From positions 2,886 through 66,885 of the forward strand of contig CALRGX010000005.1 of the NCBI GenBank assembly GCA_943358385.1: DNA of 64,000 bases. Reading direction: 5' to 3'. The notes under the pieces were generated by a model. It saw only the letters and a program-made list of their open reading frames with translations. It was not told the DNA's origin and did not search any database. The first letter of the stretch is position 1, and each line of letters opens with the position of its first letter. Below, piece after piece: positions 29,823-54,072 of the stretch. This DNA is from Parcubacteria group bacterium. Lineage in GTDB: Bacteria; Patescibacteriota; Minisyncoccia; Phycocordibacterales; UBA2100. A program made the position numbers and the translations under genes.

Positions 29823-30311
29823 CTACATCCACCCTGCCATCACGACCGCTGCTTCGCGTTCATTGAGTAATGTGCGTCGCACTTCCCAAACACGCTGCGA
29901 ACGGATTCCTTGCGAGGGGAAGCGTGCCTCCAGAATGAAGCGGCTGCAGAGCTCTTGGGCAGCAGCTTCGGCGCTCATGGCCTCACGCAGCGGCACCGCT
30001 TGGTTGTGCGGTGCGGTAAGCAGCACTCGCACTGATGCGCTGTGTCCAGTGACGGGCATCCAGTGGGTGAATGCGCTGAAACGCGGCCCCATGGCATCTT
30101 TGAGTGCCTCCATGGTGGCGAGGCAATCTTCGACCGGTATGGAGCGCACGCGCATTGAGGCGGGGAGTTCGCTGAAAAGCATGGCAATCTCCGTGATGCT
30201 TTGACTGCCGCGACGATAGCACAGAGCTTTGCGAAAATACATCCTTTTGCATGTGGAGGTTACCCAGGTATGATGTGCCCATGGCAAGCCTCTATACACA
30301 TCGTGCATCAA
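29823..30311 (-). CDS. Hypothetical protein (start uncertain)
   Basis: This is an ORF with no recognisable domain. It may start at the internal MYFRKA, which would avoid overlap with htpX. Confidence 0.3.
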   Translation of the reverse strand: MMHDVYRGLPWAHHTWVTSTCKRMYFRKALCYRRGSQSITEIAMLFSELPASMRVRSIPVEDCLATMEALKDAMGPRFSAFTHWMPVTGHSASVRVLLTAPHNQAVPLREAMSAEAAAQELCSRFILEARFPSQGIRSQRVWEVRRTLLNEREAAVVMAGWM

Positions 30312-31177
30312 ATGTCAGGAAGACGTGGGCGCTGATGAGCGTGTTTTTTGTGGCGGTTATTGGTATTGGGTGGGTGCTTTCAGAAGTGTATGGAAATCCT
30401 GGCATGCTCTATACGGCCGCCTTGTTTTCAATCGGCATGAATATTTCGGCTTTTTGGTTTTCCGACAAAGTGGCGATAGCTGCAGCACGTGCAAAACCCG
30501 CAGACGGGCCAGAGTACCTCGAGCTGAATCGTATTGTGGAGAATCTCGCCATCACTGCGGGGCTCCCTAAGCCGCGTGTGTATGTGATGGACGAACCTGC
30601 GCCAAATGCATTTGCCACCGGGCGCGATGCGAAACACGCGGCAATTGCGGTGACCACCGGCTTGATGCGCACACTCGACAAAGCAGAGTTGGAAGGCGTA
30701 ATTGCACATGAGCTTTCGCACATCGGGAATCGCGACATTTTGGTAATGACGGTTGCGGTGGTGTTGGTGGGCTTCCTCTCCATTATTGGGGACATGTTTT
30801 TCCGCATGAGCGTTTTTGGAGGGAATCGTGATAGTGATAGTAAAAACGGTGGGCTCCTAGCAATTCTTGCAGTTGTGGCGCTGGTGATTGCACCAATTGC
30901 GGCCCAGTTGATGCAGTTGGCGATTTCACGCAAGCGCGAGTTTCTGGCGGATGCTTCAGGTGCGCTTCTCACGCGCTACCCTGATGGCCTCGCGTCTGCA
31001 CTTCAAAAGATCGGCTCCTACAGCGCGCCGATGTCGAGTGCGAGCTCGGCCACAGCACATTTGTACATTTCGAATCCTTTTGGTAAAGAACAGGCCGGAA
31101 GATTTGTCGCGAAATTGTTTGCCACACATCCGCCCATGGAAGAACGCATAGCGGCACTCAACGACATGCGCCTGTAA
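30281..31177 (+). CDS. htpX: Protease HtpX (M48 family)
   Basis: HELSHIGNRD is the HExxH motif, with 4 TM segments and the start MASLYTHR. Confidence 0.8.
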   Translation: MASLYTHRASNVRKTWALMSVFFVAVIGIGWVLSEVYGNPGMLYTAALFSIGMNISAFWFSDKVAIAAARAKPADGPEYLELNRIVENLAITAGLPKPRVYVMDEPAPNAFATGRDAKHAAIAVTTGLMRTLDKAELEGVIAHELSHIGNRDILVMTVAVVLVGFLSIIGDMFFRMSVFGGNRDSDSKNGGLLAILAVVALVIAPIAAQLMQLAISRKREFLADASGALLTRYPDGLASALQKIGSYSAPMSSASSATAHLYISNPFGKEQAGRFVAKLFATHPPMEERIAALNDMRL

Positions 31178-31188
31178 AAGCGCCTAGT

Positions 31189-31767
31189 ATGAAAGAAAGC
31201 ATACCCAACCTACTCACTATTTTCCGTGTGCTGCTCACTTTGGTGGCGATTGCGCTCGTGCCTTTCTCGCCCATTCATTTCTATGAATGGCTTCTGGTGA
31301 TATTCATACTGGCCGCTGCGACGGACAATCTGGATGGCTACCTAGCACGACGTTGGCGTGTAGAATCTGATTTTGGAAAAATCTTTGACCCACTTGCTGA
31401 TAAGGTGCTGACGTTTATTTTCCTCGTGATCCTTTACAGCACAGGCACCATTCCTGCGGTCATCATCCTCCTGCTCATTGTGCGCGATTTGGTGGTGGAT
31501 AGCGTACGCGCTGTTGGTGCAGCACAAGGGAAGGTGGTGCAGGCAATCATGACGGCAAAAATTAAAACCGTGCTGCTGTTTGTGTTGATTATCGCCGCTC
31601 TCAGCTCACTCACCCTCGGTGCAGGCAATGCCGTGCAGCCGTTGGTTATGCCGCTTGCCATCGCCGCGCTCCTATTTTCGTATGTCAGCGCTGCACAGTA
31701 TGGTGTCGTTTTTTGGCAGCACTACAGAATCGTGAAAAGCAGCGAAAAGAAATCATCAGCCCAGTAG
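31189..31767 (+). CDS. pgsA: CDP-diacylglycerol--glycerol-3-phosphate 3-phosphatidyltransferase
   Basis: NLLTIFRVLL...DNLDGYLARRW...GKIFDPLADK matches the CDP-alcohol phosphatidyltransferase motif. Confidence 0.75.
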   Translation: MKESIPNLLTIFRVLLTLVAIALVPFSPIHFYEWLLVIFILAAATDNLDGYLARRWRVESDFGKIFDPLADKVLTFIFLVILYSTGTIPAVIILLLIVRDLVVDSVRAVGAAQGKVVQAIMTAKIKTVLLFVLIIAALSSLTLGAGNAVQPLVMPLAIAALLFSYVSAAQYGVVFWQHYRIVKSSEKKSSAQ

Positions 31768-32210
31768 GAGAGGGTGATGATGAGGCGGTCGCGTGGGCTC
31801 ACCAGGCGGTCCTTCAGGAGGAATGCTCGGCCGCCGATGTTGCGAGCGAACAAACCGTCGGTAAAAAATTTGTCGCCAATCACGAGGAACTGCGTGTGCT
31901 CGTCGTGCGGGATGGCGGCGAGGATGCGGGCGCTTGGCTTTCTGCGCGGCGATTCAACAAGCGGGATGCCCAACTCTTGGGCGAATCTGCGCGCGCGAGT
32001 CCGGTCGCGCGTGTTGGTGACCAAGAGTACACGGGTGAGGCTCACCAGCTGCTGCGCGCAGGCACGCGCGTGGGTGTCCATGTCATCATCACCATCTGCT
32101 GCAAGCACGCCGTCTACATCAAGCAGTACGAGGTGCTCTTTGTGGACAGCGGCGAGAATTTCTTCCCACGTCTTTCGTTCAACATGTAATTTCTTTCGGG
32201 GGGTATGCAT
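31722..32210 (-). CDS. HAD-superfamily phosphatase (YqeG/IIIA-like)
   Basis: LVLLDVDGVL matches HAD motif I, with LLVTN and FFTDG downstream. The gene overlaps the pgsA 3' end by 46 bp. Confidence 0.5.
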   Translation of the reverse strand: MHTPRKKLHVERKTWEEILAAVHKEHLVLLDVDGVLAADGDDDMDTHARACAQQLVSLTRVLLVTNTRDRTRARRFAQELGIPLVESPRRKPSARILAAIPHDEHTQFLVIGDKFFTDGLFARNIGGRAFLLKDRLVSPRDRLIITLSYWADDFFSLLFTIL

Positions 32211-32213
32211 AAG

Positions 32214-32960
32214 CTACGCAATTTCAAGCAATAGTGGGAAGTGATCGGATCCATGGAGCCCGAGCCGCTTTTGCTTGAGTACGGTGAGATGCAGTGGCAC
32301 TAGGATGTAATCGAGCTGATTCGGAACCTTCCAAAAAGTGATGGTGCGACGGAAGGGATTTTTGAGCTGGTACAAATCGAGGAGCGCATGGAGAATGTTG
32401 CGCTCGTGAATCTGGATTTCGTGCAGCTTGTAGCCAAAATATTTCCATACGAATAAATTGAGAAAGGGTTTACCAAAGGTATTAAAGTCGCCGCAGATGA
32501 TGTTCATCCGCTCGCGGCTGAGGCTCTCGACCACTTCACGAAATTGGGAGAGGCGGTGGTAGGGGCCAGCTTCACACTTGAAGTGCGTGTTGAAAATGCG
32601 AAATTTTCCCTGCGGTGCATCTACTTCAACAAACTGAGAATCTGCCTTGTAGTCGGCATAGGTGGTATCGAAGCCAGAGACATGCTCGTAGTGATACTGG
32701 TGGGGGACTATCTTCTGACTCACGATGGGAAATTTTGATGCAATCACCATGTACAGTTTTTCAGTGGCTTTTTTGGGATTGCGGAAGCGCATAATCTCCT
32801 CGTTGAGTGTGATGTGCATGCCGAGCTTTTCAAGCAGTGGTGCGTGTCGTTGGGGGAGTTCTTGGAGGCAGATAATATCCGCATCTTGTTCCTTCAGAAA
32901 ATCAATCGCCTCCGGGATGCGTTTGTTCTTGTTGTACATGTTCCAGGTGATGATTTTCAT
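32214..32960 (-). CDS. Endonuclease/exonuclease/phosphatase (EEP) family protein, Xth-like
   Basis: MKIITWNMYN...DADIICLQEL. The start is trimmed to this Met because the longer ORF would run through the ssrA gene. Confidence 0.65.
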   Translation of the reverse strand: MKIITWNMYNKNKRIPEAIDFLKEQDADIICLQELPQRHAPLLEKLGMHITLNEEIMRFRNPKKATEKLYMVIASKFPIVSQKIVPHQYHYEHVSGFDTTYADYKADSQFVEVDAPQGKFRIFNTHFKCEAGPYHRLSQFREVVESLSRERMNIICGDFNTFGKPFLNLFVWKYFGYKLHEIQIHERNILHALLDLYQLKNPFRRTITFWKVPNQLDYILVPLHLTVLKQKRLGLHGSDHFPLLLEIA

Positions 32961-33009
32961 GGTCGTGCCTACTATACCACTCTCCCTGGGTAGGTGTTTA
33001 CGCTGAATA

Positions 33010-33038
33010 TTGACGTGGAACGTACTTGAAAGTATAGT
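33010..33038 (+). promoter_or_regulatory. Strong sigma70-like promoter driving ssrA
   Basis: TTGACG (33010-15), a 17-bp spacer, then TATAGT (33033-38). Confidence 0.6.
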
Positions 33039-33044
33039 CCAAAA

Positions 33045-33107
33045 CGGTGTTAGGTGCGGTGTAACTAAGTGGATCGGACCCGGGGGCGGTACCCGGCGCC
33101 TCCACCA
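33045..33107 (+). ncRNA. ssrA: tmRNA acceptor (3') piece of a circularly permuted ssrA
   Basis: A T-arm-like hairpin CCGGG-ggcggta-CCCGG is followed by CGCCTCC-ACCA. This is the 3' acceptor strand, discriminator and CCA, and it lies upstream of the 5' GGGGGCG strand. Confidence 0.55.
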
Positions 33108-33149
33108 AAAACACATCGCTCTGTTCTTTACAGAAGGTGTGCTTTTGCT

Positions 33150-33340
33150 GGGGGCGAAATAGGATCGACGACCACCCAAAAGCTCCGCTGCTTCAACGCA
33201 AGCCGAAGCACCAACTCAAGTGCCAACCATCAGGACGGCGCTGTTCACGCCTAAGGGCTGAACGGGGTTCGGGGAGTACCTGGCAACAGAAACTCCCCAC
33301 TCATACCATGGGCCCGCTCAAAGAGAGCGGGCCCAACTCA
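33150..33340 (+). ncRNA. ssrA: tmRNA coding (5') piece of permuted ssrA
   Basis: It begins GGGGGCGAAATAGGATCGACG, which resembles the tmRNA 5' end GGGGcugauucuGGAUUCGACG. Its GGGGGCG is complementary to the upstream CGCCTCC. It contains a short reading frame ending TAA (a candidate tag ...ANHQDGAVHA) and a terminal hairpin GGGCCCGCTC-aaagag-AGCGGGCCC. Confidence 0.55.
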
Positions 33341-33420
33341 TATCTGAGTGAATTTGACACTAGTATTTTACGGTGGTACTATATAAAAGGTACAGTAGGA
33401 AACCAAAGGAGAACAGACGA

Positions 33421-34080
33421 ATGGCCAAGCATCTCAAGAGTTCGGCAACGAACATGCGCCATTCCGACACGATCAACGCCCACACCCTGTGGGCATTCAT
33501 GAACCCCGAGTACGCAGAGGACGATATCCGTGTCGAGCGCAAGCTCGAGGCATTGGAAGATGAACTGCGCGAAACATGGGAGCCGTACGAAACTTCGCAG
33601 CCGACCCACGGTTACAACGGGCATGACCCGTTCACTGAGGCAGGTGAATTCGCACGATTCCCCAAGTCCGGCATCTATTTCCGGGACATGGAGCGGATGG
33701 ATTATGACTACAGCGGATCGGACGACGAGTTCCAAGACGAAGCTGACTACGAGCCTCAGCATCACTTTTATGACGGGTCAGTGTACGAAGACTACACCCG
33801 ATCGTCGCGGCAGGCCGACATCGACGACTGGTACGACGACTATCCGCAGTACGAATTCCCGGACTACGAGTGGGAAGCGTACGAGGCGTCACTCGTCTGC
33901 GAGCCTGATCCCACGGAGTCCGAGTACCTGGAGGACCGATACTCACTCCCGTACACGCAATCCTTGCGGATGGCGGTGCGCGAACGAGTGAATGGCGACA
34001 TGGAGAGCTGCCGGTGGAATGGGCCGTATTCGCGTGGCAAACGCTGCAAGCCTTCGCACCGGCCGCGCGCTGGCCGCTGA
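33421..34080 (+). CDS. Highly acidic Tyr/Asp/Glu-rich hypothetical protein
   Basis: AAAGGAG-N9-ATG precedes the start. Low-complexity acidic segments include DYDYSGSDDEFQDEADYEPQHHFYDG and DDWYDDYPQYEFPDYEWEAYEA. A terminator follows. Confidence 0.55.
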   Translation: MAKHLKSSATNMRHSDTINAHTLWAFMNPEYAEDDIRVERKLEALEDELRETWEPYETSQPTHGYNGHDPFTEAGEFARFPKSGIYFRDMERMDYDYSGSDDEFQDEADYEPQHHFYDGSVYEDYTRSSRQADIDDWYDDYPQYEFPDYEWEAYEASLVCEPDPTESEYLEDRYSLPYTQSLRMAVRERVNGDMESCRWNGPYSRGKRCKPSHRPRAGR

Positions 34081-34110
34081 CAGTCGTCCTTGTTCGAGAT
34101 ACTAAAACAC

Positions 34111-34144
34111 ACAGCCGGAGCATTCGCTCCGGCTGTACTTTTTC
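34111..34144 (+). terminator. Rho-independent terminator
   Basis: ACAGCCGGAGC-attc-GCTCCGGCTGT is followed by ACTTTTTTC. Confidence 0.7.
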
Positions 34145-34165
34145 TATTCGTATTCGCTAAGATGT

Positions 34166-34747
34166 CTATCCGCGCATCGCTTTCAGGCCGCGTGTCCATT
34201 TAAGGAGCTGTTGAATCATGACACCTGCTTTCTCTTCATACTTTGCAAATAGTTCAGCGGGCGTGCCTTTGCCAAACAGCACAGGGAAGTAGTCGTTCCC
34301 CAAGAGGTGAACTGCCTCGCGCACCGGTGCCATTTGCAATTCGATGGCAACCAAGCGCAGGTGCTCGACGGCGCGTGCTCCGCCTACTGATCCGTAGGCG
34401 ACGAATGCTACTGGCTTGTCGTTCCATTCCTGGTACACCCAGTCCATCGCATTTTTGAGCACACCTGAAGTAGAGTGATTGTACTCGGGAGTTACGATGA
34501 CGTAGCCATCTGCCTCTGCAATCTTCTTGGTGAATCGCGCTACAGCCTCGTGAGTATAGGGCGCGGTTTTAAATGCTGGGCTCACCGGCTCATTGAAAAG
34601 CGGCATGTCGTAGTCGCGTAAATCAAGCATTTCTGCAACGACACCTTCTTGCTTTGCGAGGTGTTCGGCAACCCAGGCGGCTGCCTTATCACCAAACCTT
34701 CCTTCACGCGTGCTGCCAATAATCACTTTTATGTTGAGTGGTGCCAT
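34166..34747 (-). CDS. NAD(P)H-dependent FMN reductase (flavodoxin-like)
   Basis: MAPLNIKVIIGSTREGRFGDKAA matches the NADPH-dependent FMN reductase N-terminal motif. Confidence 0.65.
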   Translation of the reverse strand: MAPLNIKVIIGSTREGRFGDKAAAWVAEHLAKQEGVVAEMLDLRDYDMPLFNEPVSPAFKTAPYTHEAVARFTKKIAEADGYVIVTPEYNHSTSGVLKNAMDWVYQEWNDKPVAFVAYGSVGGARAVEHLRLVAIELQMAPVREAVHLLGNDYFPVLFGKGTPAELFAKYEEKAGVMIQQLLKWTRGLKAMRG

Positions 34748-34787
34748 ACATATGTTGAAAAGAGTAATACCTCTAGCGTAGCGTGCC

Positions 34788-34846
34788 ACTTTACAAAGTA
34801 AAGTGAATACAACGCTGCACGACAACTACTTTACATTGTAAAGTAG
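34788..34846. promoter_or_regulatory. Two perfect palindromes sharing the half-site ACTTTAC in the divergent FMN-reductase/hxlR intergenic region
   Basis: CACTTTAC-aaa-GTAAAGTG at 34788-34806 and CTACTTTACA-t-TGTAAAGTAG at 34826-34846. Confidence 0.5.
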
Positions 34847-34854
34847 CGATTCGT

Positions 34855-35166
34855 TTGCTATGCTCCTCGTATATGGCGGAGAGCCCCAAAGAAGTGTGCC
34901 CCATCACCAAAGTAGCCGAGCTCCTCTCGGATACCTGGACGATGCTTATTATGCGAGCCCTCACTGAAGGGTCCAAGCGATTTACCGAGCTAGAGGTATG
35001 GTTGGGTGACATATCCTCACGCACGCTCACTCTGAAGCTGGCCAAGCTGCAAGAGCAAGGCTTGGTAGAAAAAACCCAAGAAGGCACCTACCAGGCCACC
35101 AAAAAAGGGAAGGGCTTGAAAATGATTGAAAAGGCAATGGTGAAGTACAGTAAGGAGTATCTGTAG
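34855..35166 (+). CDS. HxlR-family winged-helix transcriptional regulator
   Basis: CPITKVAELLSDTWTMLIMRAL...RFTELEVWLGDISSRTLTLKLAKLQEQGLV is the HxlR-type HTH. It is divergent from an FMN reductase gene. Confidence 0.65.
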   Translation: MLCSSYMAESPKEVCPITKVAELLSDTWTMLIMRALTEGSKRFTELEVWLGDISSRTLTLKLAKLQEQGLVEKTQEGTYQATKKGKGLKMIEKAMVKYSKEYL

Positions 35167-35211: not shown

Positions 35212-35301
35212 GGAGGGTTCGCATAGTGGTCTAGTGCACGTCCCTGGAAAGGACGAGTCTGGGAAACCGGACCGAGAGTTCGAATCTCTCACCCTCCGCC
35301 A
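35212..35301 (+). tRNA. tRNA-Ser (anticodon GGA), CCA encoded
   Basis: The acceptor GGAGGGT/ACCCTCC is followed by GCCA. The anticodon loop is CTGGAAA, and the long variable arm is GTCTGGGAAACCGGAC. Confidence 0.85.
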
Positions 35302-35371: not shown

Positions 35372-35402
35372 AAAAAAACACGATAATCTCGTGTATTTTT
35401 TG
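35372..35402. terminator. Bidirectional terminator (tRNA-Ser on + and the island operon on -)
   Basis: AAAAAAACACGA-taatc-TCGTGTATTTTTTT. Confidence 0.65.
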
Positions 35403-35417
35403 TTGCAAGAGTAACTC

Positions 35418-35837
35418 TCAATAAGACTTTAGCCACTCATTCATCATTTTAATTTCAACCTCTTGAGCTTTTATTATATTCTCTGCAAAAGTCCTAATTT
35501 CAGGATTTACAGTTTTGTCTTGTAGTAACAATTTGGCCATGTCTACAGCACCTTGATGATGAGGTATCATGCCAGCAATAAATTCTTTTTCTAGAGCTTT
35601 ACCTGTTTTACCTTTCATCATCCCGACCATGTCTGTCATGGTCATATCCATCATACTGTTACCAGTATTCATCATCATTGAACCATCTGGCATTTGATGC
35701 ATATTCTGCATTGTTTTCTGTGCACCAGTTAGATTGTTTATTCGCTCTTTATCTTTCTGTACGATATCTCCGAAGTGAAATACCCATGTAGAGATGAGTG
35801 CTATTGCTAATACGATTGTAGAAATTTTGTAATTCAT
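35418..35837 (-). CDS. DUF305-family protein with Met-rich segment (copper-associated four-helix-bundle family)
   Basis: Signal peptide, the Met-rich run MQNMHQMPDGSMMMNTGNSMMDMTMTDMVGMM, and the DUF305 motif GMIPHHQGAVDMA. Confidence 0.65.
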   Translation of the reverse strand: MNYKISTIVLAIALISTWVFHFGDIVQKDKERINNLTGAQKTMQNMHQMPDGSMMMNTGNSMMDMTMTDMVGMMKGKTGKALEKEFIAGMIPHHQGAVDMAKLLLQDKTVNPEIRTFAENIIKAQEVEIKMMNEWLKSY

Positions 35838-35872
35838 AAATCTGTTTATTAATTAATAATACTTTGGGGACA

Positions 35873-36517
35873 TTACATTGCCATATGCCCCATACTTAAA
35901 GTTGTGATCACCATATAGAGAGCCATAAGTGCCATAAATAGATTCTCGAAAAGAGTTACCTTTGTCATTGGTACAGAGAAAACTGTTCCTAAGCATGCAC
36001 AAGGTATCTCATCTTTGTTTTGAAGTGCTTTCCAGACCCCTATAGTACCTATAGACATAATAATAAAGGTAAACACGTCTCTGTATATTCCACCAATGAC
36101 AAAGAAGTACAGTACTCCAAGCCCTATTTCAATAAATGGATACAGAAGTGCGTATGTGCGAGACTTCTTTGCCAAGATATCATACGTCATGTAAGCGTCT
36201 GCAAAAGCACTCAAATTGGGTAGTTTAAATAATCCAAAAACAAGAAAGAAATAGGACATCATGTACATCATTCCTGTCATAAAGCTATAATCTTGTTTGA
36301 GATACATAGAGACAATAGTCAAAATTGTAATGACTCCGATCATAGCTATTAATGGTAATAGTTTTTGGAAAGTTGATTGATGTGGAAGATTCAAGACTTT
36401 TATTGATTGTTCGGTTTTGTGGTGTTCACAAAAGTAATGAGGACTACCATTTGTGTTCTCATAATAGGTGCCAGCCATACTACACTTCTCACATTTGTTG
36501 TATTTTATTGCATGCAT
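35873..36517 (-). CDS. MauE/DoxX-family redox-associated membrane protein with N-terminal zinc-ribbon-like domain
   Basis: The N-terminus CEKC...FCEHH is followed by a 4-TM domain with LYPFIEIGLGVLYFFV and IPCACLGTVFSVPMTKVTLFEN. It is a paralogue of the C-domain of 7788..8507. Confidence 0.6.
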   Translation of the reverse strand: MHAIKYNKCEKCSMAGTYYENTNGSPHYFCEHHKTEQSIKVLNLPHQSTFQKLLPLIAMIGVITILTIVSMYLKQDYSFMTGMMYMMSYFFLVFGLFKLPNLSAFADAYMTYDILAKKSRTYALLYPFIEIGLGVLYFFVIGGIYRDVFTFIIMSIGTIGVWKALQNKDEIPCACLGTVFSVPMTKVTLFENLFMALMALYMVITTLSMGHMAM

Positions 36518-36522
36518 ACAAT

Positions 36523-36888
36523 TTAATGTTGAACGCTTTCACTTCCATGATGATCTTCACCAAGTAGTGTGTTATCCATAACATAATGAGAAAACAACAT
36601 AAAAAGTATTGCTAAAATTACCACAACTGCAAGATTTCTCTTTTCTATTTTGAATCTGTCTTTCAAGAAAAATGTTACATAGGTGATAATCATTCCAAGG
36701 CCAAGAAGTATTCCAGCGTATGACGGATTATCAAGATAATGCTGTATACCACCTGACAAAAATCCAGTTGCAAACGAAAGTCCTGTGATTATAAGAAAAT
36801 AATTTAGGTTGATTTTTTGCCCATGTTCTTTTGCTTCTTTAATATTTCCTATAATAGTGAAGATTAGACCTATACCAATTAGAACCAC
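36523..36888 (-). CDS. Small integral membrane protein, His-rich C-terminus; start may lie upstream (non-ATG)
   Basis: It has 3-4 hydrophobic helices and a C-terminus EDHHGSESVQH. The in-frame hydrophobic sequence continues upstream to 36993 without an ATG. Confidence 0.45.
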   Translation of the reverse strand: MVLIGIGLIFTIIGNIKEAKEHGQKINLNYFLIITGLSFATGFLSGGIQHYLDNPSYAGILLGLGMIITYVTFFLKDRFKIEKRNLAVVVILAILFMLFSHYVMDNTLLGEDHHGSESVQH

Positions 36889-37008
36889 ATATCTAGTAAC
36901 TCCATTTTGGAGTGTTCCGATATGAACTACTGACCCTGCGATAAGGGCAACTCCTAAATATTTGCAATATAAGTAAAAAATGCATAATGTGATTTATTTA
37001 TATCCATA

Positions 37009-37281
37009 CTATTTCCTCTTTAGCTTATAGACTTTAATAATCTCCTCTTGCATTTCCTTGATTCGACTTTTATTTGTGTCTTTTGTAAGACAGTGGGCAA
37101 GGTGGCTCTGTAGCATCTCATCTTCAAGGGAAGAGATGGCACTTTTTATAGCACTTGTTTGAGTAATGATATCAATACAGTATTTATCTGCTTGAATCAT
37201 CTTTTCAACTCCCTCCAGTTGTCCCATTATGCGTTTAATGCGACTAACTATTTTTTTGTTATCTTTGTGTACTCCGTGCAT
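37009..37281 (-). CDS. csoR: CsoR/RcnR-family metal-sensing transcriptional repressor (copper-sensing CsoR-like)
   Basis: VSRIKRIMGQLEGVEKMIQADKYCIDIITQTSAIKSAISSLEDEMLQSHLAHC carries the DUF156 pattern with conserved Cys...His...Cys ligand positions. Confidence 0.75.
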   Translation of the reverse strand: MHGVHKDNKKIVSRIKRIMGQLEGVEKMIQADKYCIDIITQTSAIKSAISSLEDEMLQSHLAHCLTKDTNKSRIKEMQEEIIKVYKLKRK

Positions 37282-37283
37282 AT

Positions 37284-37367
37284 TTATTTACAGCAATTAG
37301 AACCACAATTTGAACAAGCACACTTCTCACATTTACATGTGATACAAGAGCATTTTGTATTTTTCAT
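37284..37367 (-). CDS. 27-aa Cys-rich peptide (MKNTKCSCITCKCEKCACSNCGSNCCK), candidate metallothionein/Cu-binding peptide; first gene of csoR operon
   Basis: I translated the minus strand by hand. It gives 9 Cys in 27 aa, in CxC and CC motifs. The stop TAA lies 2 nt before the csoR ATG. The ORF is below the size cutoff of the ORF track. Confidence 0.5.
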   Translation of the reverse strand: MKNTKCSCITCKCEKCACSNCGSNCCK

Positions 37368-37421
37368 AATAATAGAGATATTGTAGTGGGTTATGGTAAT
37401 GGACTAGAATATCTTGTATAT

Positions 37422-37450
37422 ATTATATACCCTATGGGGGTATATTGCAA
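37422..37450 (-). promoter_or_regulatory. Promoter of the Cys-peptide/csoR operon with CsoR-like operator in the spacer
   Basis: On the minus strand the promoter reads TTGCAA - 17 bp - TATAAT. The spacer contains the GC-rich pseudo-palindrome ATACCCTATGGGGGTAT (37427-37443), which resembles known CsoR operators (TACCC...GGGGGTA type). Confidence 0.55.
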
Positions 37451-37652
37451 CTAGTCTATAAGCGTTAATTCTTTATCTTTATACACGATCTTGCTCCGCA
37501 GATTTGCTAATAGCTCTCGCTTCTCTGTGACCGCACCCTCTTTCAGAATGTATTTTGCATAATTTCGTATATCAGTATCAGGTGCTTATTTCTCTAGGTG
37601 TCTCATTTGTCTCATTTTCATCTAAAACCCTTTGTTTTATTACTGGGAGATA

Positions 37653-37667
37653 GCGACTCACTTGCCT
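37653..37667. repeat. Right copy of direct repeat (GCGACTCACTTGCCT) bounding the AT-rich islet
   Basis: It matches the left-flank segments at 35323-35335 and 35347-35355. Confidence 0.45.
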
Positions 37668-37827
37668 CAATGAGACACTCTAAAAAGTGCTATAATACAC
37701 TTACAAGGCCTCAAGTCGTGGGTACTTAACTCACATGGCCCGCAAAAATAAAGAGACAGAAGCGAAAGCTTCTGGCGATTATATTTTTGTAGGAAGGGTG
37801 AAAGATTCGAAGGCCGGAGGCGGGGGT

Positions 37828-37960
37828 CCCCAAAAGCTTTTGGGGCGCCGAGGCAGGGTCGTGGAATTTTCAAGTGCGACGGCACTTGAAAATATCCCTG
37901 ACCGAATCCCGGTCAAAAGTCTGCATCTACTGATACAGCTTTCGACCCTGCCTCGCGCCG
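37828..37960 (+). other. Highly structured ~130-nt element (candidate ncRNA or MITE-like repeat)
   Basis: A perfect 18-bp palindrome CCCCAAAAGCTTTTGGGG lies at 37828-37845. A 13-bp long-range stem pairs CGAGGCAGGGTCG (37849-61) with CGACCCTGCCTCG (37943-55). Inside it are the hairpins TTTTCAAGTGC-gacg-GCACTTGAAAA and GACCG-aatcc-CGGTC. Confidence 0.4.
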
Positions 37961-44140: not shown

Positions 44141-44487
44141 GGGCTGCATCGGGTAGCTGCTATCAATGGCAACATCGATAGAGGAAAGTCCGGGCTCGGG
44201 CCGATAGAAATATCGCGCAGCAGGGTAATAGGTAACGCCTATCCATCGTAAGGTGAGAGGTGCGAGCAGAAACGCCCGCGGCGAAAGCCAGAGGCCCCGC
44301 AAGGGTGACGTCTGTGGAAACACAGATATGAAACGGCTAAATCCTTACCTCCGTGCAAGGTCGTGCCTGTCGCAAGACAGGAGTGCCGCTTGAGGGTGTT
44401 GGCGACAACACTCCCAGATGAATAGTTACACAGTCCTTCGCCTGAAAAGGCTCGGGATGGACAGAACCCGGCTTACAGGTGCAGCGC
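44141..44487 (+). ncRNA. rnpB: RNase P RNA, bacterial type A
   Basis: GGAAAGTCCGGGCTC is the P4 5' strand, GGTAACGCC is present, ACAGAACCCGGCTTA is the P4 3' strand, the P3 hairpin is TATCAATG-gcaa-CATCGATA, and P1 pairs GCTGCATC with GGTGCAGC. Confidence 0.85.
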
Positions 44488-44795
44488 AGTGAGTGAAAAG
44501 AGGCCCCGAATAGGGGTCTCTTTTCCGAATAAGCAATTCTGTATGCTCCGCATACAGATGCAGCGCAGCGAATAAAGAAGAGACCCGAACAGGGTCTTTT
44601 CTTTTGAGCAAGCAAAATCTGAAAGGTTTCCTTATAGGTGCAGCGAAATGAGCGAAGAAAAACCCCGAATAGGGGTTTTTCTTCCGAATGAGCAATCCTG
44701 TATGCTTTGCATATAGGTGCAGCGAACGAGTCAAAAGAGAACGCGAAAGCGTTCTCTTTTGCGAGAGAGCCAGAACTGTATCGACCCGTGCCCGC
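44477..44795 (+). repeat. Four tandem ~80-bp units, each = copy of rnpB P1-3' strand (GGTGCAGCG / GATGCAGCG) + hairpin with GAANA pentaloop + U-tract (+ second hairpin in units 1 and 3)
   Basis: Units start at 44477, 44556, 44636 and 44716. The stems are GGCCCC/GGGGTC, AGACCC/GGGTCT, AAACCCC/GGGGTTT and AGAACGC/GCGTTCT, so they covary. Units 1 and 3 also carry TGTATGC-nnn-GCATACA. Confidence 0.6.
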
Positions 44796-52162: not shown

Positions 52163-52603
52163 CTATACGCCACGCACGCGCGACCCGCTATCGATCGCGA
52201 CCATGCGATGATGGAGCGAAACGACGTTGTCGTAAAATGCTTGGAACGTTTCGGGAAGTGCACGCAGCTGTGGATGCTCAGTACTCCACTGGTCGCTGTA
52301 CAGATCCGCGATGGCGCGCTTTGCCCTTGCCGTGCCCCATCCGTCCACCTCCTCTCCTTCGAGCTGACTTCGCTGAACGAGCGCCCAGCTCGCCAGCATG
52401 AGCATTCTGCTGGTCATCTGCATAGATGCACCAACATACGCGCCCTGAAGTGCTCGAGAGAGCTTCTTGCACTCTCGTCGTCCTTGGCCGTCAAGATACG
52501 TGGCCATTGATTCGGTAAGACTCATTGCCTCGGTGAAAAGTCCATCGAACTTGCGTTTTTTGTACTCTGCACCAAAAGAAACAACGGTGACAGGTGATGT
52601 CAT
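52163..52603 (-). CDS. Hypothetical protein
   Basis: The start MTSPVTVVSF is preceded by GAGGA-N5. A longer start would overlap the tRNA-Gly promoter. Confidence 0.45.
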   Translation of the reverse strand: MTSPVTVVSFGAEYKKRKFDGLFTEAMSLTESMATYLDGQGRRECKKLSRALQGAYVGASMQMTSRMLMLASWALVQRSQLEGEEVDGWGTARAKRAIADLYSDQWSTEHPQLRALPETFQAFYDNVVSLHHRMVAIDSGSRVRGV

Positions 52604-52707: not shown

Positions 52708-52778
52708 GCGGAATTAGTTCAGTGGTAGAACGAATGCTTCCCAAGCATTAGACGCGGGTTCGATTCCCGCATTCCGCA
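52708..52778 (+). tRNA. tRNA-Gly (anticodon CCC)
   Basis: The acceptor is GCGGAAT/ATTCCGC with discriminator A. The anticodon stem AATGC/GCATT carries the loop TTCCCAA. The T-arm is GCGGG-TTCGATT-CCCGC. Confidence 0.85.
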
Positions 52779-53204
52779 CAAAAAAGATGAGCTGGAAGCG
52801 TGAGCTTCCGGCGATTACTTTTTGTAGCGAAATGCGGGAATCGAAAGGCGGAGCCTGAATGAATGCCGAACTGAGTGAGGCAGAGAACAGGCGAGCCCGG
52901 GGAGGAAGCACTTAGATTTTTCTGCGTGAGCTAGAAAAAACTTAGTGACTTGACCCCGATTCCCGCATTCCGCACAAAACTCGCTGAGCGAGTGTGTGTG
53001 GAATGAGAAACATGCCTGCGCATGTTTCGTCGGGAATCGAAGCCCGGAGCGTTGTGTTTGTTTGTGTAGCAAGGCAAACACCCTGCCCGACCGGCAGGCG
53101 GGCGCGAGGGCCGGCTCGAAGAAAATTGCGTCAGCAATTTTACTGAGAGGATCCCGCATTCCGCGTTATCGTAAATATCCCTGATTGATTCCCGCATTCC
53201 GCAC
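52758..53204. repeat. Patchwork of direct and inverted copies of the tRNA-Gly 3' end
   Basis: Direct copies of GATTCCCGCATTCCGCAC(AAAA) lie at 52763-80 (in the tRNA), 52958-79 (22 bp), 53152-64 (13 bp) and 53187-204 (18 bp). Inverted partial copies ATGCGGGAATCGAA lie at 52832-45 and CGGGAATCGAA at 53031-41. The arrangement looks like two ~195-bp units, each a direct core, a hairpin and an inverted core. Confidence 0.6.
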
Positions 53205-53271
53205 TCCACTATCCACTTGCGTCCCTGTGGAGTGCCAATGCTATACTGACCCTCTAAAAGCTAGCGTGCAC

Positions 53272-53511
53272 ATGCGTATGCAATCAGTAACCATTTACAG
53301 CACTCCTACCTGCCACTTCTGTCACATGGCAAAGGAGTTTTTTACAGAGAATAAAGTTGAGTATACCGAGCATGACGTTGCGGCAGATATGGAAAAGCGC
53401 AATGAAATGATTGAGAAAAGTGGCCAGATGGGAGTACCGGTCATTATGATTGGCAGTGAATTGATCGTAGGATTTGACGAGGATACCTTGCGCGAAAAAC
53501 TGGGCTTGTAA
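53272..53511 (+). CDS. Glutaredoxin-family (NrdH/Grx-like) small redox protein, CHFC active site
   Basis: VTIYSTPTCHFCHMAKEFF...GVPVIMIGSELIVGFD has a thioredoxin-fold CxxC and the Grx GVP motif. Confidence 0.6.
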   Translation: MRMQSVTIYSTPTCHFCHMAKEFFTENKVEYTEHDVAADMEKRNEMIEKSGQMGVPVIMIGSELIVGFDEDTLREKLGL

Positions 53512-53571
53512 AAGTTTCTTCCCGTAAAGCCTGCCTCCAACGAGGTGGGCTTTGTGCTACAGTTGCTGCGA

Positions 53572-53643
53572 GCCTCCATAGTTCAATGGATAGAACAGAC
53601 CCGTCCTAAGGGTTAGATCCTGGTTCGATTCCGGGTGGGGGCA
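53572..53643 (+). tRNA. tRNA-Arg (anticodon CCT)
   Basis: The acceptor is GCCTCCA/TGGGGGC plus A. The anticodon stem GACCC/GGGTT carries the loop GTCCTAA. The T-arm is CCTGG-TTCGATT-CCGGG. Confidence 0.75.
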
Positions 53644-53665
53644 CTGAAATGGTATAATCTTTGCC

Positions 53666-53995
53666 ATGCCCCCCAACACTGAAGATCTTCTTAAGAAAAT
53701 ATACGAGCTCGAGCGTGACAATAACCGCATGCTTCACGCCATGCGTCGCAGCTCCTTCATCTCGGGGACGCTCAAGGTGATTATGTGGATTGTGGCGCTG
53801 ATCATTCCTCTGTATATCTACATTAATTACCTTGGTCCGGCCTTGAATCAAGCCATGGGGGCCTTGAATCAAGTACAGGGGCAGATGCAGCAGGTACAGG
53901 AAGCGGGAGCCAAAATATCCGTGCCTTTTTCTGAATTTTCTGGTATCTTGGAAGGGCTCAAGAAGTACGCTCCAAAGGGGAGTACCGAGCAATAA
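53666..53995 (+). CDS. Small hypothetical membrane protein
   Basis: It has one central TM helix, a Q-rich C-terminal segment and no recognisable domain. Confidence 0.4.
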   Translation: MPPNTEDLLKKIYELERDNNRMLHAMRRSSFISGTLKVIMWIVALIIPLYIYINYLGPALNQAMGALNQVQGQMQQVQEAGAKISVPFSEFSGILEGLKKYAPKGSTEQ

Positions 53996-53996
53996 T

Positions 53997-54070
53997 GCCC
54001 AGGTAGCTCAGTTGGTTAGAGCATTCGCCTGAAGAGCGAAGGGTCGCCGGTTCGAATCTGGCCCTGGGCA
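53997..54070 (+). tRNA. tRNA-Phe (anticodon GAA)
   Basis: GCCCAGGTAGCTCAGTTGGTTAGAGC...CTGAAGA...GGTTCGAATCTGGCCCTGGGCA has the canonical bacterial tRNA-Phe features. Confidence 0.85.
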
Positions 54071-54072
54071 CA

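What the first reader, a model, noticed from the sequence alone, without database searches (positions are those of the whole stretch)
33010..33340. Circularly permuted (two-piece) tmRNA gene with its own strong promoter
The tmRNA 3' tRNA-like end lies upstream of the tmRNA 5' end. It consists of a T-arm-like hairpin, then CGCCTCC, a discriminator A and CCA ending at 33107. It is followed by a ~42-nt intervening segment and then GGGGGCGAAATAGGATCGACG at 33150, which matches the tmRNA 5' acceptor/D-region consensus. GGGGGCG pairs with CGCCTCC to form the acceptor stem. No conventional 3' T-arm with CCA exists downstream of the coding piece. That order of acceptor piece then coding piece is the hallmark of permuted ssrA, which is known from alpha-proteobacteria, some beta-proteobacteria and cyanobacteria. 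A perfect-spacing promoter, TTGACG-17-TATAGT, sits ~10 nt upstream of the acceptor piece. The T-loop GGCGGTA is atypical. The tag reading frame is uncertain; one candidate is ...ANHQDGAVHA followed by TAA.
Basis: partly seen in the sequence, partly recalled or inferred. Interest (0 to 1): 0.6.

Follow-up and report, generated by a model that had tools for sequence, protein, structure and literature searches.

The report
Alpha-type two-piece tmRNA in a CPR bacterium
This is a real split (circularly permuted) tmRNA gene of the kind typical of Alphaproteobacteria and their phages, but it sits in the chromosome of a Patescibacteria (CPR) bacterium, a phylum that normally has the ordinary one-piece form, so it was most likely acquired by horizontal transfer and then kept.

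Summary
ARAGORN calls a permuted tmRNA at 33011-33345 with tag ANHQDGAVHA. Rfam alpha_tmRNA scores 122.9 bits and tmRNA_permuted 91.9 bits. The stated coordinates, the 42-nt intervening sequence, the G3:U70 acceptor stem and the TTGACG-17-TATAGT promoter are all correct.

The contig is from a Candidatus Paceibacterota (Patescibacteria/CPR) bacterium. A published census of that phylum lists 5,252 standard tmRNAs and only 15 alpha-type permuted ones, which its authors suspected might be misbinned.

Here the gene lies between CPR genes in at least four species-level lineages from independent assemblies. A fifth lineage (L003/L170) has an empty site. The mature RNA is almost invariant (0/62 and 1/156 changes) while adjacent DNA is 62-86% identical, and the promoter hexamers are kept across a diverged spacer. 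This indicates a functional gene.

The RNA is a compact, divergent alpha type. It scores 123 bits against 295-310 for cellular alphaproteobacterial genes, and its architecture resembles phage-borne copies. Its tag lacks both ANDN and the terminal AA. No close relative was found.

Whether it replaces or supplements a native one-piece tmRNA could not be tested.

The parts
33010..33038 (+). ssrA promoter: -35 TTGACG (33010-33015), 17-nt spacer, -10 TATAGT (33033-33038)
   Evidence: Promoter scan, 10 of 12 matches. In lineage L171 the spacer sequence has diverged (this segment is 62% identical) but TTGACA-17-TATAGT is kept.
33046..33107 (+). Acceptor piece (about 62 nt). From 5' to 3': a 5' tail that pairs with the 3' tail of the coding piece, the P2b and P2a 5' strands, the T-arm (33080-33096, loop GGCGGTA), the acceptor 3' strand CGCCTCC (33097-33103), discriminator A, and an encoded CCA (33105-33107).
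   Evidence: The 5' end is inferred: it lies 7-8 nt after the -10 box and is where perfect conservation begins in L171 (62/62 identical against 57/85 upstream; Fisher p=4e-8).
33108..33149 (+). Intervening sequence (42 nt), removed during processing. In the precursor it folds as a hairpin extending the acceptor stem.
   Evidence: It is 41/42 identical in L168.
33150..33305 (+). Coding piece. From 5' to 3': acceptor 5' strand GGGGGCG (33150-33156), D-loop analogue AAATAGGATCGACG, the P2a/P2b 3' strands, the tag reading frame, the conserved hairpin GGGGAGTACCTG/CAGAAACTCCCC (33271-33298) and a 3' tail.
   Evidence: It is 155/156 identical in L168 and identical in L167. The 3' end is inferred, not mapped.
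33222..33254 (+). Tag reading frame: GCC AAC CAT CAG GAC GGC GCT GTT CAC GCC TAA = ANHQDGAVHA*
   Evidence: ARAGORN. It aligns codon for codon with the 10-residue tags of the compact viral-contig forms. L168 has GAC>GAA, giving ANHQEGAVHA.
33306..33342 (+). 37-nt GC-rich hairpin element (stem 33309-33319 / 33325-33335), a probable terminator or 3'-protective stem-loop. It is bounded by the direct repeat ACTCATA.
   Evidence: It is present in the window and L168 and precisely absent in L167. There is no other copy in the window and no U-tract follows it.
33354..33382 (+). Promoter of the downstream gene Hyp219 (TTGACA-17-TACTAT). It is the counterpart of the single promoter in the empty site of L003.
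32214..32960 (-). Left flanking gene: Exo_endo_phos family nuclease, transcribed divergently from ssrA.
   Evidence: Pfam. It is 98% identical at the protein level in L003 and 96% in L171. More distant homologues are named Sungbacteria and Staskawiczbacteria.
33421..34080 (+). Right flanking gene: Hyp219, a clade-restricted hypothetical protein.
   Evidence: No Pfam hit. Only 5 homologues in the 5.8-billion-protein database.
44141..44491 (+). RNase P RNA (class A), the enzyme expected to cut the 5' end of the coding piece.
   Evidence: Rfam RF00010, 120.4 bits. Its role in processing this precursor is inferred from what is established for two-piece tmRNA.

Best explanation
Window 33010-33342 is a functional, circularly permuted (two-piece) ssrA gene of the alphaproteobacterial type. 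It resides in the chromosome of a Candidatus Paceibacterota (Patescibacteria/CPR) bacterium.

Mechanism (inferred from established two-piece tmRNA biology):
- One precursor is transcribed from the TTGACG-17-TATAGT promoter.
- RNase P cuts 5' of G33150, and 3' trimming exposes the encoded CCA at 33107. The 42-nt intervening hairpin is discarded.
- The roughly 62-nt acceptor piece and the roughly 155-nt coding piece stay together through the acceptor stem, helices P2a/P2b and a pairing between their outer tails.
- Alanyl-tRNA synthetase charges the RNA through G3:U70.
- With SmpB and EF-Tu, the RNA enters stalled ribosomes. Translation resumes on GCC and adds ANHQDGAVHA.

Origin (inferred): the gene entered an ancestor of this genus-level CPR clade by horizontal transfer from an alphaproteobacterium or, more likely, a phage carrying a compact permuted ssrA. 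It has been maintained by selection in at least four lineages and lost from this site in one (L003/L170).
For: Identity:
- ARAGORN calls a permuted tmRNA. RF01849 scores 122.9 bits and RF04321 91.9 bits, both above their gathering scores.
- All invariant alpha-type positions are present.
- The co-fold gives the canonical two-piece structure with G3:U70. Fold z-score is -7.1.

Host:
- All 29 GTDB loci encoding relatives of the M48 peptidase 2 kb upstream come from uncultured MAGs, at least 25 labelled as Patescibacteria lineages. The best, at 95%, is a Paceibacterota MAG that shares 10 kb of synteny.
- Exo homologues are named Sungbacteria and Staskawiczbacteria.
- The contig's GroEL clusters at 90% or more with a GroEL named Candidatus Paceibacterota.

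Not an artefact:
- The same cassette lies next to the same genes in ENA ERZ27280264 (identical).
- It is on two different contigs of NCBI GCA_021733565.1, where the neighbouring protein is 74% and 58% identical.
- It is in Logan SRR33465452 and in ERR5863101/ERZ4201065.

Selection:
- In L168 the RNA gene has 2 changes in 279 nt against 17 in 80 nt in the next spacer (p=2e-10).
- In L171 the acceptor piece has 0 changes in 62 nt against 28 in 85 nt upstream (p=4e-8).
- The promoter hexamers and their spacing are kept.
- The only change in the tag is Asp to Glu, in frame.

Foreign origin:
- The published census lists Patescibacteria with 5,252 standard tmRNAs, 15 alpha-permuted and 5 beta-permuted in 6,765 genomes (PMC11915505, Supplementary Table 2).
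- DNA matches are only to Alphaproteobacteria and their phages.
- The compact architecture (109 nt between the conserved blocks) matches phage and viral-contig copies (110-134 nt), not cellular alphaproteobacterial genes (165-168 nt).
- Phages are known to move alpha-type ssrA into non-alpha hosts (PMC9004378).
Against: - No close relative or donor of the RNA was found in GenBank phages, PLSDB, 120 IMG/VR copies or two JGI metagenome pattern scans. The direction and vehicle of transfer are therefore inferred.
- No SmpB gene is in the window or in 476 kb of fetched relatives' DNA.
- The tag lacks the ANDN motif and the C-terminal AA found in 83 of 88 alpha-type tags, so its use as a degradation signal is uncertain.
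- The intervening sequence and the hairpin are as conserved as the mature RNA in L168. This could mean recent spread by recombination rather than long-term purifying selection.
- One sister lineage lacks the gene at this site, so it may be dispensable or a second copy.
- There are no expression data.
Confidence: 0.72

Rival explanations
1. The gene is an extra, accessory tmRNA. The CPR genome keeps its native one-piece ssrA elsewhere, and the acquired two-piece copy is a dispensable second rescue RNA, possibly with a different tag function. This differs from the best explanation only on whether the gene replaces or supplements the native one.
For: There is presence/absence polymorphism: the sister lineage L003/L170 has an empty site with the same flanking genes. 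It is no more distant from the window than the cassette-bearing lineages are. The phylum normally carries standard tmRNA. The tag is non-canonical.
Against: No standard tmRNA is in the 64-kb window or in any fetched relative's locus. That covers only a small fraction of each genome. The strong conservation of the RNA argues that it matters where it is present.
Confidence: 0.35
2. The gene is an artefact of metagenomics. The ssrA belongs to an alphaproteobacterium and was joined to, or binned with, CPR sequence. This is the explanation the tmRNA database authors offered for cross-phylum cases.
For: The database authors warn of misbinning (PMC11915505). Several assemblies break inside ssrA, at blocks shared with alphaproteobacterial genes.
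Against: The gene is internal to a 153-kb contig, with CPR genes on both sides. The same junctions recur in independent assemblies from different studies, with flanks diverged to 62-86% identity. The RNA scores only 123 bits against 295-310 for cellular alphaproteobacterial genes and has a unique tag, so it is not a stray piece of a typical alphaproteobacterium.
Confidence: 0.02
3. The gene is a decaying relic: a horizontally acquired ssrA that is no longer functional in the CPR host.
For: The Rfam score is low relative to cellular alphaproteobacterial genes. The 5' hairpin with the outer P2 helix, the PK1-region segment and the post-tag segment are missing. The tag is odd. The gene is lost in one lineage.
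Against: Every invariant position of the tRNA-like domain and the 3' block is intact. The RNA is nearly invariant while its flanks diverge. The promoter hexamers are conserved. The tag frame is intact in all copies. Phage copies with the same deletions score similarly (95-148 bits), so the compact form is a recurrent design rather than decay.
Confidence: 0.06
4. The gene arose independently or vertically. This CPR clade permuted its own tmRNA, or inherited a permuted form from deep ancestry, and the resemblance to the alpha type is convergent.
For: Permutation is thought to have arisen more than once, in the alpha, beta and cyanobacterial lineages (as summarised in PMC11915505 and PMC9004378). 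No donor was found.
Against: The gene shares long alpha-specific sequence blocks exactly: GGACCCGGGGGCGGTACCCGGCGCCTCCACCA, GGGGGCGAAATAGGATCGAC and CCTGGCAACAGAA. The alpha model is the best-scoring model of the tmRNA clan. None of the 29 patescibacterial loci examined has a tmRNA call, and the phylum is more than 99% standard form.
Confidence: 0.04

Closest known systems
Alphaproteobacterial two-piece tmRNA (Rfam RF01849 alpha_tmRNA). The prototype is Caulobacter crescentus ssrA (Keiler, Shapiro & Williams 2000, as cited in PMC9004378).
   Same: The gene order is the same: acceptor piece, intervening sequence, coding piece. The tRNA-like domain is identical, including the T-loop GGCGGUA, G3:U70, discriminator A and an encoded CCA. 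The 5' block of the coding piece and the GGCAACAGAA 3' block are the same. The resume codon is Ala and the second codon is Asn.
   Different: The host is a Patescibacteria bacterium. The score is 123 bits against 295-310. It lacks the 5' hairpin with the outer P2 helix, the PK1-region segment and about 40 nt after the tag; the span between conserved blocks is 109 nt against 165-168. The tag is ANHQDGAVHA rather than ANDN...(L/V)AA.
Phage-encoded permuted tmRNAs: Rhodobacter phage RcRudolph, Mesorhizobium phage Cp1R7A-A1, OM43 phage Melnitz (PMC9004378) and compact copies on IMG/VR contigs.
   Same: The coding piece is compact and lacks the post-tag segment. The RF01849 scores are similarly low (95-148 bits). 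The compact IMG/VR forms have a 10-codon tag at the same aligned position. These copies are a precedent for alpha-type ssrA occurring outside alphaproteobacterial cells.
   Different: The window's gene sits among housekeeping genes of a cellular chromosome, with no phage genes nearby. Its intervening sequence is short (42 nt against about 93-98 nt in the two GenBank phages). The variable regions show no sequence similarity. The phage tags keep ANDN or AN.N and end in LAA.
Standard one-piece tmRNA (Rfam RF00023), the form found in more than 99% of Patescibacteria with a detected tmRNA.
   Same: The inferred function is the same: trans-translation with SmpB. Both are alanine-charged, tRNA-like and carry a short tag frame.
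   Different: The gene is circularly permuted. No contiguous one-piece model match exists here.

Membership tests
Permuted (two-piece) tmRNA, alpha type (RF01849 / RF04321) | The 3' tRNA-like half (T-arm, acceptor 3' strand, CCA) is encoded upstream of the 5' acceptor strand and the tag frame. | tested here: met
   Sequence; ARAGORN permuted call; Rfam alignments.
Permuted (two-piece) tmRNA, alpha type (RF01849 / RF04321) | The score reaches the curated gathering score of the covariance model. | tested here: met
   RF01849 122.9 bits against 50; RF04321 91.9 bits against 47. This is far below the four cellular alphaproteobacterial controls (295-310 and 147-154 bits).
Permuted (two-piece) tmRNA, alpha type (RF01849 / RF04321) | A 7-bp acceptor stem with the G3:U70 alanine identity pair, a discriminator A and a 3' CCA. 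| tested here: met
   The pairs are G-C, G-C, G-U, G-C, G-C, C-G, G-C, followed by A and CCA.
Permuted (two-piece) tmRNA, alpha type (RF01849 / RF04321) | Alpha-type sequence signature of the T-arm/T-loop, the D-loop analogue and the GGCAACAGAA 3' block. | tested here: met
   All invariant columns of the 7-sequence alignment are shared by the window.
Permuted (two-piece) tmRNA, alpha type (RF01849 / RF04321) | A tag reading frame with an Ala resume codon and an in-frame stop. | tested here: met
   GCC...TAA at 33222-33254. The frame is kept in L168 with a D>E change.
Permuted (two-piece) tmRNA, alpha type (RF01849 / RF04321) | A canonical alpha tag: the ANDN motif and a C-terminal (L/V/I)AA. 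| tested here: not met
   The tag is ANHQDGAVHA. Of 88 alpha-type tags, 83 end in AA, 76 contain ANDN or ANDD, and none has His in the last three residues. This feature is typical of the family rather than strictly defining.
Permuted (two-piece) tmRNA, alpha type (RF01849 / RF04321) | Host within Alphaproteobacteria (the taxonomic scope of RF01849). | tested here: not met
   The flanking genes and synteny are patescibacterial.
Permuted (two-piece) tmRNA, alpha type (RF01849 / RF04321) | The precursor is processed into two base-paired RNAs. The RNA is charged with alanine and acts with SmpB in trans-translation. | not testable with these tools
   This needs RNA-seq or northern blots and biochemistry. 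RNase P RNA is present in the window. SmpB was not found in the DNA available, which is a weak test.
Standard one-piece tmRNA (RF00023) | A contiguous gene with the 5' acceptor strand first and the T-arm and CCA end last. | tested here: not met
   No RF00023 match at gathering score and no non-permuted ARAGORN call anywhere in the window.
Phage-encoded permuted tmRNA | Located in a phage or prophage genome. | tested here: not met
   The neighbours are housekeeping genes (M48 peptidase, PgsA, nuclease, FMN reductase, tRNA-Ser), conserved in synteny with a sister MAG. There are no near matches to phage records beyond the conserved RNA blocks.
Phage-encoded permuted tmRNA | A compact coding piece lacking the segments typical of cellular alphaproteobacterial genes. 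| tested here: met
   The span is 109 nt, against 110-134 nt in phage and viral-contig copies and 165-168 nt in cellular alphaproteobacterial genes.

The most novel reading that the evidence does not exclude
A genus-level clade of Paceibacterota has replaced its native one-piece tmRNA with a horizontally acquired, phage-like compact two-piece tmRNA of alphaproteobacterial ancestry. This foreign RNA works with the CPR SmpB, alanyl-tRNA synthetase, RNase P and the unusual CPR ribosome. Its tag has been remodelled (ending ...AVHA) for a different fate of the tagged proteins. That would be a cross-phylum xenologous replacement of a core translation quality-control RNA. It might also point to an alphaproteobacterial host, or to shared phages, for these episymbionts.
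Probability: 0.3. Interest if true: 0.65.

Novelty: new member of a known kind. Interest (0 to 1): 0.5.

Why it matters
tmRNA is usually treated as a vertically inherited core gene, and the permuted form as a marker of three bacterial clades. The 2025 tmRNA census listed 15 alpha-type permuted genes in Patescibacteria but could not exclude misbinning.

This locus shows that at least one such case is real. The gene is embedded in CPR chromosomes of several species, is under strong constraint, and is variably present among close relatives.

If followed up, it offers a natural experiment on three questions:
- whether a two-piece tmRNA is interchangeable with the one-piece form across phyla;
- how tag sequences adapt to a new proteolytic background;
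- gene flow between CPR episymbionts and Alphaproteobacteria or their phages.

It also carries a practical warning. Assemblies tend to break inside this gene, so it will be under-reported in CPR bins.

Tried and rejected
**Searches for close relatives or a donor of the RNA** (all found only the universally conserved blocks, or nothing):
- blastn against GenBank phages and PLSDB found only Alphaproteobacteria and their phages, at 80% identity or less over the tRNA-like domain.
- IMG/VR scans with the window-specific 5' block and with a degenerate back-translation of the tag found nothing.
- A generic IMG/VR scan returned 120 alpha-type copies. None matched outside the conserved blocks.
- A JGI metagenome scan requiring the compact spacing and a tag starting Ala-Asn-His found nothing.
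- A second JGI scan without the tag constraint gave 7 loci. Six were low-GC and five lay near tRNA genes. Every tag called was of ANDN type, and none was close.

**SmpB.** There were no hits. This is uninformative about whole genomes.

**Assembly chimera.** Considered and rejected.

**The 37-nt hairpin as a dispersed repeat.** There is no second copy in the window.

**Target-site duplication.** The two promoter -35 regions (TGAATATTGAC and TGAATTTGAC) flank the cassette, and the empty site has one (ATAATTGAC). This fits either insertion with duplication or deletion between repeats, and it cannot decide between them.

As a result, relatives' whole genomes could not be scanned for tmRNA.
Full report
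**1. The observation**

- The T-arm is CCGGG-GGCGGTA-CCCGG (33080-33096).
- It is followed by CGCCTCC, a discriminator A and CCA, ending at 33107.
- A 42-nt intervening sequence follows (33108-33149).
- GGGGGCGAAATAGGATCGACG starts at 33150.

ARAGORN reports a permuted tmRNA at 33011-33345 with the tag ANHQDGAVHA. Rfam gives RF01849 (alpha_tmRNA) 122.9 bits over the whole model and RF04321 (tmRNA_permuted) 91.9 bits, both well above their gathering scores. Neither tool reports a one-piece tmRNA in the window.

The promoter scan finds TTGACG-17-TATAGT at 33010-33038.

A co-fold of the two inferred pieces reproduces the canonical two-piece design:
- a 7-bp acceptor stem with G3:U70;
- a 5-bp T-arm;
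- helices P2a and P2b;
- a pairing between the 5' tail of the acceptor piece and the 3' tail of the coding piece.

In the precursor, the intervening sequence forms a hairpin that extends the acceptor stem. The precursor folds far better than shuffled sequence (z = -7.1).

**2. The host is not one of the usual carriers**

The window is a bacterial chromosome. It encodes GroEL, RNase J, enolase, LepA, MurJ, a class II ribonucleotide reductase, a class I aminoacyl-tRNA synthetase, RNase P RNA and four tRNAs. It comes from a 153-kb metagenomic contig.

Three lines of evidence place it in the Patescibacteria:
- A scan of one genome per GTDB species with the M48 peptidase 2 kb upstream returned 29 loci, all from uncultured MAGs. 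At least 25 are labelled as Patescibacteria lineages (Paceibacterota, Kaiserbacteria, Parcubacteria, 'Saccharibacteria'). Two of the most distant are labelled actinobacterial, and two carry no phylum label.
- The best of these, L003 (a Paceibacterota MAG, 95% identical in M48), shares about 10 kb of synteny with the window.
- Exo homologues carry Sungbacteria and Staskawiczbacteria names. The contig's GroEL clusters at 90% or more with a GroEL named Candidatus Paceibacterota.

According to Supplementary Table 2 of the 2025 tmRNA census (PMC11915505), 6,765 Patescibacteria genomes hold 5,252 standard tmRNAs, 15 alpha-type permuted and 5 beta-type permuted. The authors caution that cross-phylum cases may be misbinned contigs.

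**3. It is really embedded there, in several lineages**

The cassette lies between two divergently transcribed genes: an Exo_endo_phos nuclease (32214-32960, minus strand) and a clade-restricted hypothetical protein, Hyp219 (33421-34080, plus strand).

Cassette-bearing copies:

| Locus | Source | Relation to the window | ssrA |
|---|---|---|---|
| L032 | ENA ERZ27280264 | identical | identical cassette |
| L174, L175 | ERR5863101, ERZ4201065 | same strain, 99.9% | present |
| L167 | NCBI GCA_021733565.1 | Hyp219 74% identical | same ssrA, RF01849 123 bits, tag ANHQDGAVHA |
| L168 | NCBI GCA_021733565.1, another contig | Hyp219 58% identical | same ssrA, 121 bits, cut off at the 5' contig end, tag ANHQEGAVHA |
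| L171 | Logan SRR33465452, 29.9-kb contig | Exo 96% identical | contig ends exactly at the acceptor CCA; acceptor piece identical |

Empty sites: L003 and L170 have the same two genes with only a 95-117-nt spacer and a single promoter.

Housekeeping genes of the window, L003 and L171 are about 80% identical in nucleotide sequence to one another. Hyp219 identities are star-like, at 60-78%. The empty-site lineage is therefore not an outgroup, and one loss is more parsimonious than several gains.

More distant relatives place M48 directly next to tRNA-Ser and lack the whole block. The identities between the window and L003 are mosaic (Exo 98%, PgsA 65%, PGPase 50%). This region is clearly prone to recombination.

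**4. Evidence that the gene is functional**

Conservation by segment (Fisher tests):

| Comparison | RNA gene | Adjacent DNA | p |
|---|---|---|---|
| L168 | acceptor 44/44, intervening sequence 41/42, coding piece 155/156, hairpin 37/37 | next spacer 79% identical; Hyp219 80% | 2e-10 (2/279 changes against 17/80) |
| L171 | acceptor piece 62/62 | upstream non-coding DNA: 28 changes in 85 nt | 4e-8 |

- In L171 the spacer between the promoter hexamers has diverged, but TTGACA-17-TATAGT is retained. Perfect identity begins about 7-8 nt after the -10 box, where a transcript should start.
- The only change in the tag is GAC>GAA (Asp to Glu), in frame.

One caveat applies. The intervening sequence and the terminal hairpin are as conserved as the mature RNA in L168. 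Recent exchange of the cassette by recombination may therefore contribute to the conservation. The diverged promoter in L171 argues that selection on the RNA itself is also at work.

**5. What kind of permuted tmRNA it is**

Controls run in the same way calibrate the scores:

| Source | RF01849 score | Tags |
|---|---|---|
| Four cellular Alphaproteobacteria (Shinella, Sinorhizobium, Methylobacterium, Paracoccus) | 295-310 bits | ANDN...(L/V)AA |
| Two GenBank phages of alphaproteobacterial hosts | 95-112 bits | ANDN type |
| Six complete metagenomic loci, low GC (0.40-0.43), five with tRNA genes nearby | 130-148 bits | ANDN type |
| This window | 123 bits | ANHQDGAVHA |

In the alignment, the window keeps every invariant alpha-type position. 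It lacks three segments that all four cellular genes have: the 5' hairpin with the outer P2 helix, the PK1-region segment, and about 40 nt after the tag. Both GenBank phage copies also lack the post-tag segment, and RcRudolph lacks the PK1-region segment as well.

The distance between the conserved 5' block of the coding piece and the GGCAACAGAA block is 109 nt here. It is 110-134 nt in phage and viral-contig copies and 165-168 nt in the cellular genes. A low-GC group on IMG/VR contigs has the same layout, including a 10-codon tag at the same aligned position, but its variable regions are unrelated in sequence.

The tag is an outlier. Of 88 alpha-type tags collected here, 83 end in AA, 76 contain ANDN or ANDD, and none has His among the last three residues.

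**6. The search for a donor failed**

blastn against GenBank phages and PLSDB matched only Alphaproteobacteria and their phages, and only over the conserved tRNA-like domain. Three IMG/VR scans and two JGI metagenome scans found either nothing or copies that matched only the conserved blocks.

Phage Melnitz of OM43 is a published case of an alpha-type two-piece ssrA carried into a non-alphaproteobacterial host system. Its authors found 53 two-piece tmRNAs in phage genomes (PMC9004378). A phage vehicle is therefore plausible, but it is inferred.

**7. Interpretation**

- **Shown:** a bona fide alpha-type permuted ssrA gene is embedded in patescibacterial chromosomes of at least four species-level lineages, is conserved far above its surroundings, and has a conserved promoter.
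- **Inferred from established two-piece tmRNA biology:** the precursor is cut by RNase P (its RNA is at 44141-44491) and by 3' trimming into two pieces that remain base-paired. The RNA is charged with alanine through G3:U70 and, with SmpB, rescues stalled ribosomes, appending ANHQDGAVHA.
- **Inferred from distribution and signature:** the gene was acquired horizontally from an alphaproteobacterium or a phage and was later lost in the L003 lineage.
- **Not resolved:** whether the genome also has a standard ssrA, and whether it has SmpB. Neither is in the DNA I could reach. It is also unknown what the non-canonical tag does.

**8. Verdict**

By itself, a permuted tmRNA would be ordinary. The interest lies in the host: this is a verified, contig-internal, selectively maintained alpha-type two-piece tmRNA in the CPR, a situation so far only tabulated and suspected to be misbinning.

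It is a new member of a known RNA family in an unexpected phylum, with a compact phage-like form and an unusual tag. Interest is moderate.

Noticed in passing
window 35400-37900: There is a low-GC islet (GC 0.37-0.46 against about 0.52 elsewhere) immediately after tRNA-Ser(GGA) at 35212-35301. It encodes DUF305, MauE, a hypothetical protein and a CsoR-type metal-sensing repressor. It is absent from the sister MAG L003, where about 150 bp replace about 2.6 kb. It looks like a small metal-resistance island inserted next to the tRNA gene. No integrase was seen.
   Followed up: partly
window 30251-35166 versus L003 2093-6634: The protein identities between the two sister genomes are strongly mosaic across adjacent genes: M48 95%, PgsA 65%, PGP-phosphatase-like 50%, Exo 98%, Hyp219 64%, FMN reductase 89%, HxlR 90%. 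This suggests frequent recombination or gene replacement. In more distant relatives, M48 abuts tRNA-Ser directly.
   Followed up: partly
L033, L168, L171, L174, L175 (window equivalents 33289, 33064, 33107, 33080, 33270): Five contigs from other assemblies begin or end inside the ssrA gene, mostly at blocks shared with alphaproteobacterial ssrA (T-arm, CCA end, GGCAACAGAA region). These are probably assembly-graph tangles with co-occurring Alphaproteobacteria or strain variants. Such breaks would make the gene easy to lose from CPR bins.
   Followed up: no
window 33306-33342: A 37-nt perfect GC-rich hairpin after the coding piece is an indel: it is present in the window and L168 and precisely absent in L167. 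It is bounded by the direct repeat ACTCATA (CCCCACTCATA / CCCAACTCATA). It has no U-tract and no other copy in the window.
   Followed up: partly
window 44141-44491: RNase P RNA, bacterial class A, scores 120.4 bits, only modestly above the gathering score of 100. Several helices are shortened or deleted relative to the consensus alignment.
   Followed up: no
window 52163-52603 (minus strand): A 146-residue protein matches DUF1465 (84.8 bits). I recall this family as mainly alphaproteobacterial, but that is from memory and untested. If correct, it could be another gene shared with Alphaproteobacteria.
   Followed up: no
L038 1437-1851 (Rhodobacter phage RcRudolph); L039 1439-1848 (Mesorhizobium phage Cp1R7A-A1): Both GenBank phage genomes carry permuted tmRNA genes (tags ANDNVRMDAQALAA and VAANDNHFEARALAA) that are not annotated. 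In RcRudolph a 'hypothetical protein' CDS (RCRUDOLPH_61) is annotated over part of the gene. In Cp1R7A-A1 the gene lies near a tRNA splicing ligase gene.
   Followed up: partly
L160-L166 (JGI metagenome contigs): Compact alpha-type permuted tmRNAs (RF01849 130-148 bits; tags ANDNKAFALAA and ANDNEALALVA) sit on low-GC contigs. Five of the six complete copies lie among tRNA genes (Gly, Pro, Arg) in a phage-like arrangement. In two of them (L160, L165) Rfam finds the gene but ARAGORN does not.
   Followed up: no
window 52708-54071: A cluster of tRNA-Gly(CCC), tRNA-Arg(CCU) and tRNA-Phe(GAA) lies within 1.4 kb.
   Followed up: no
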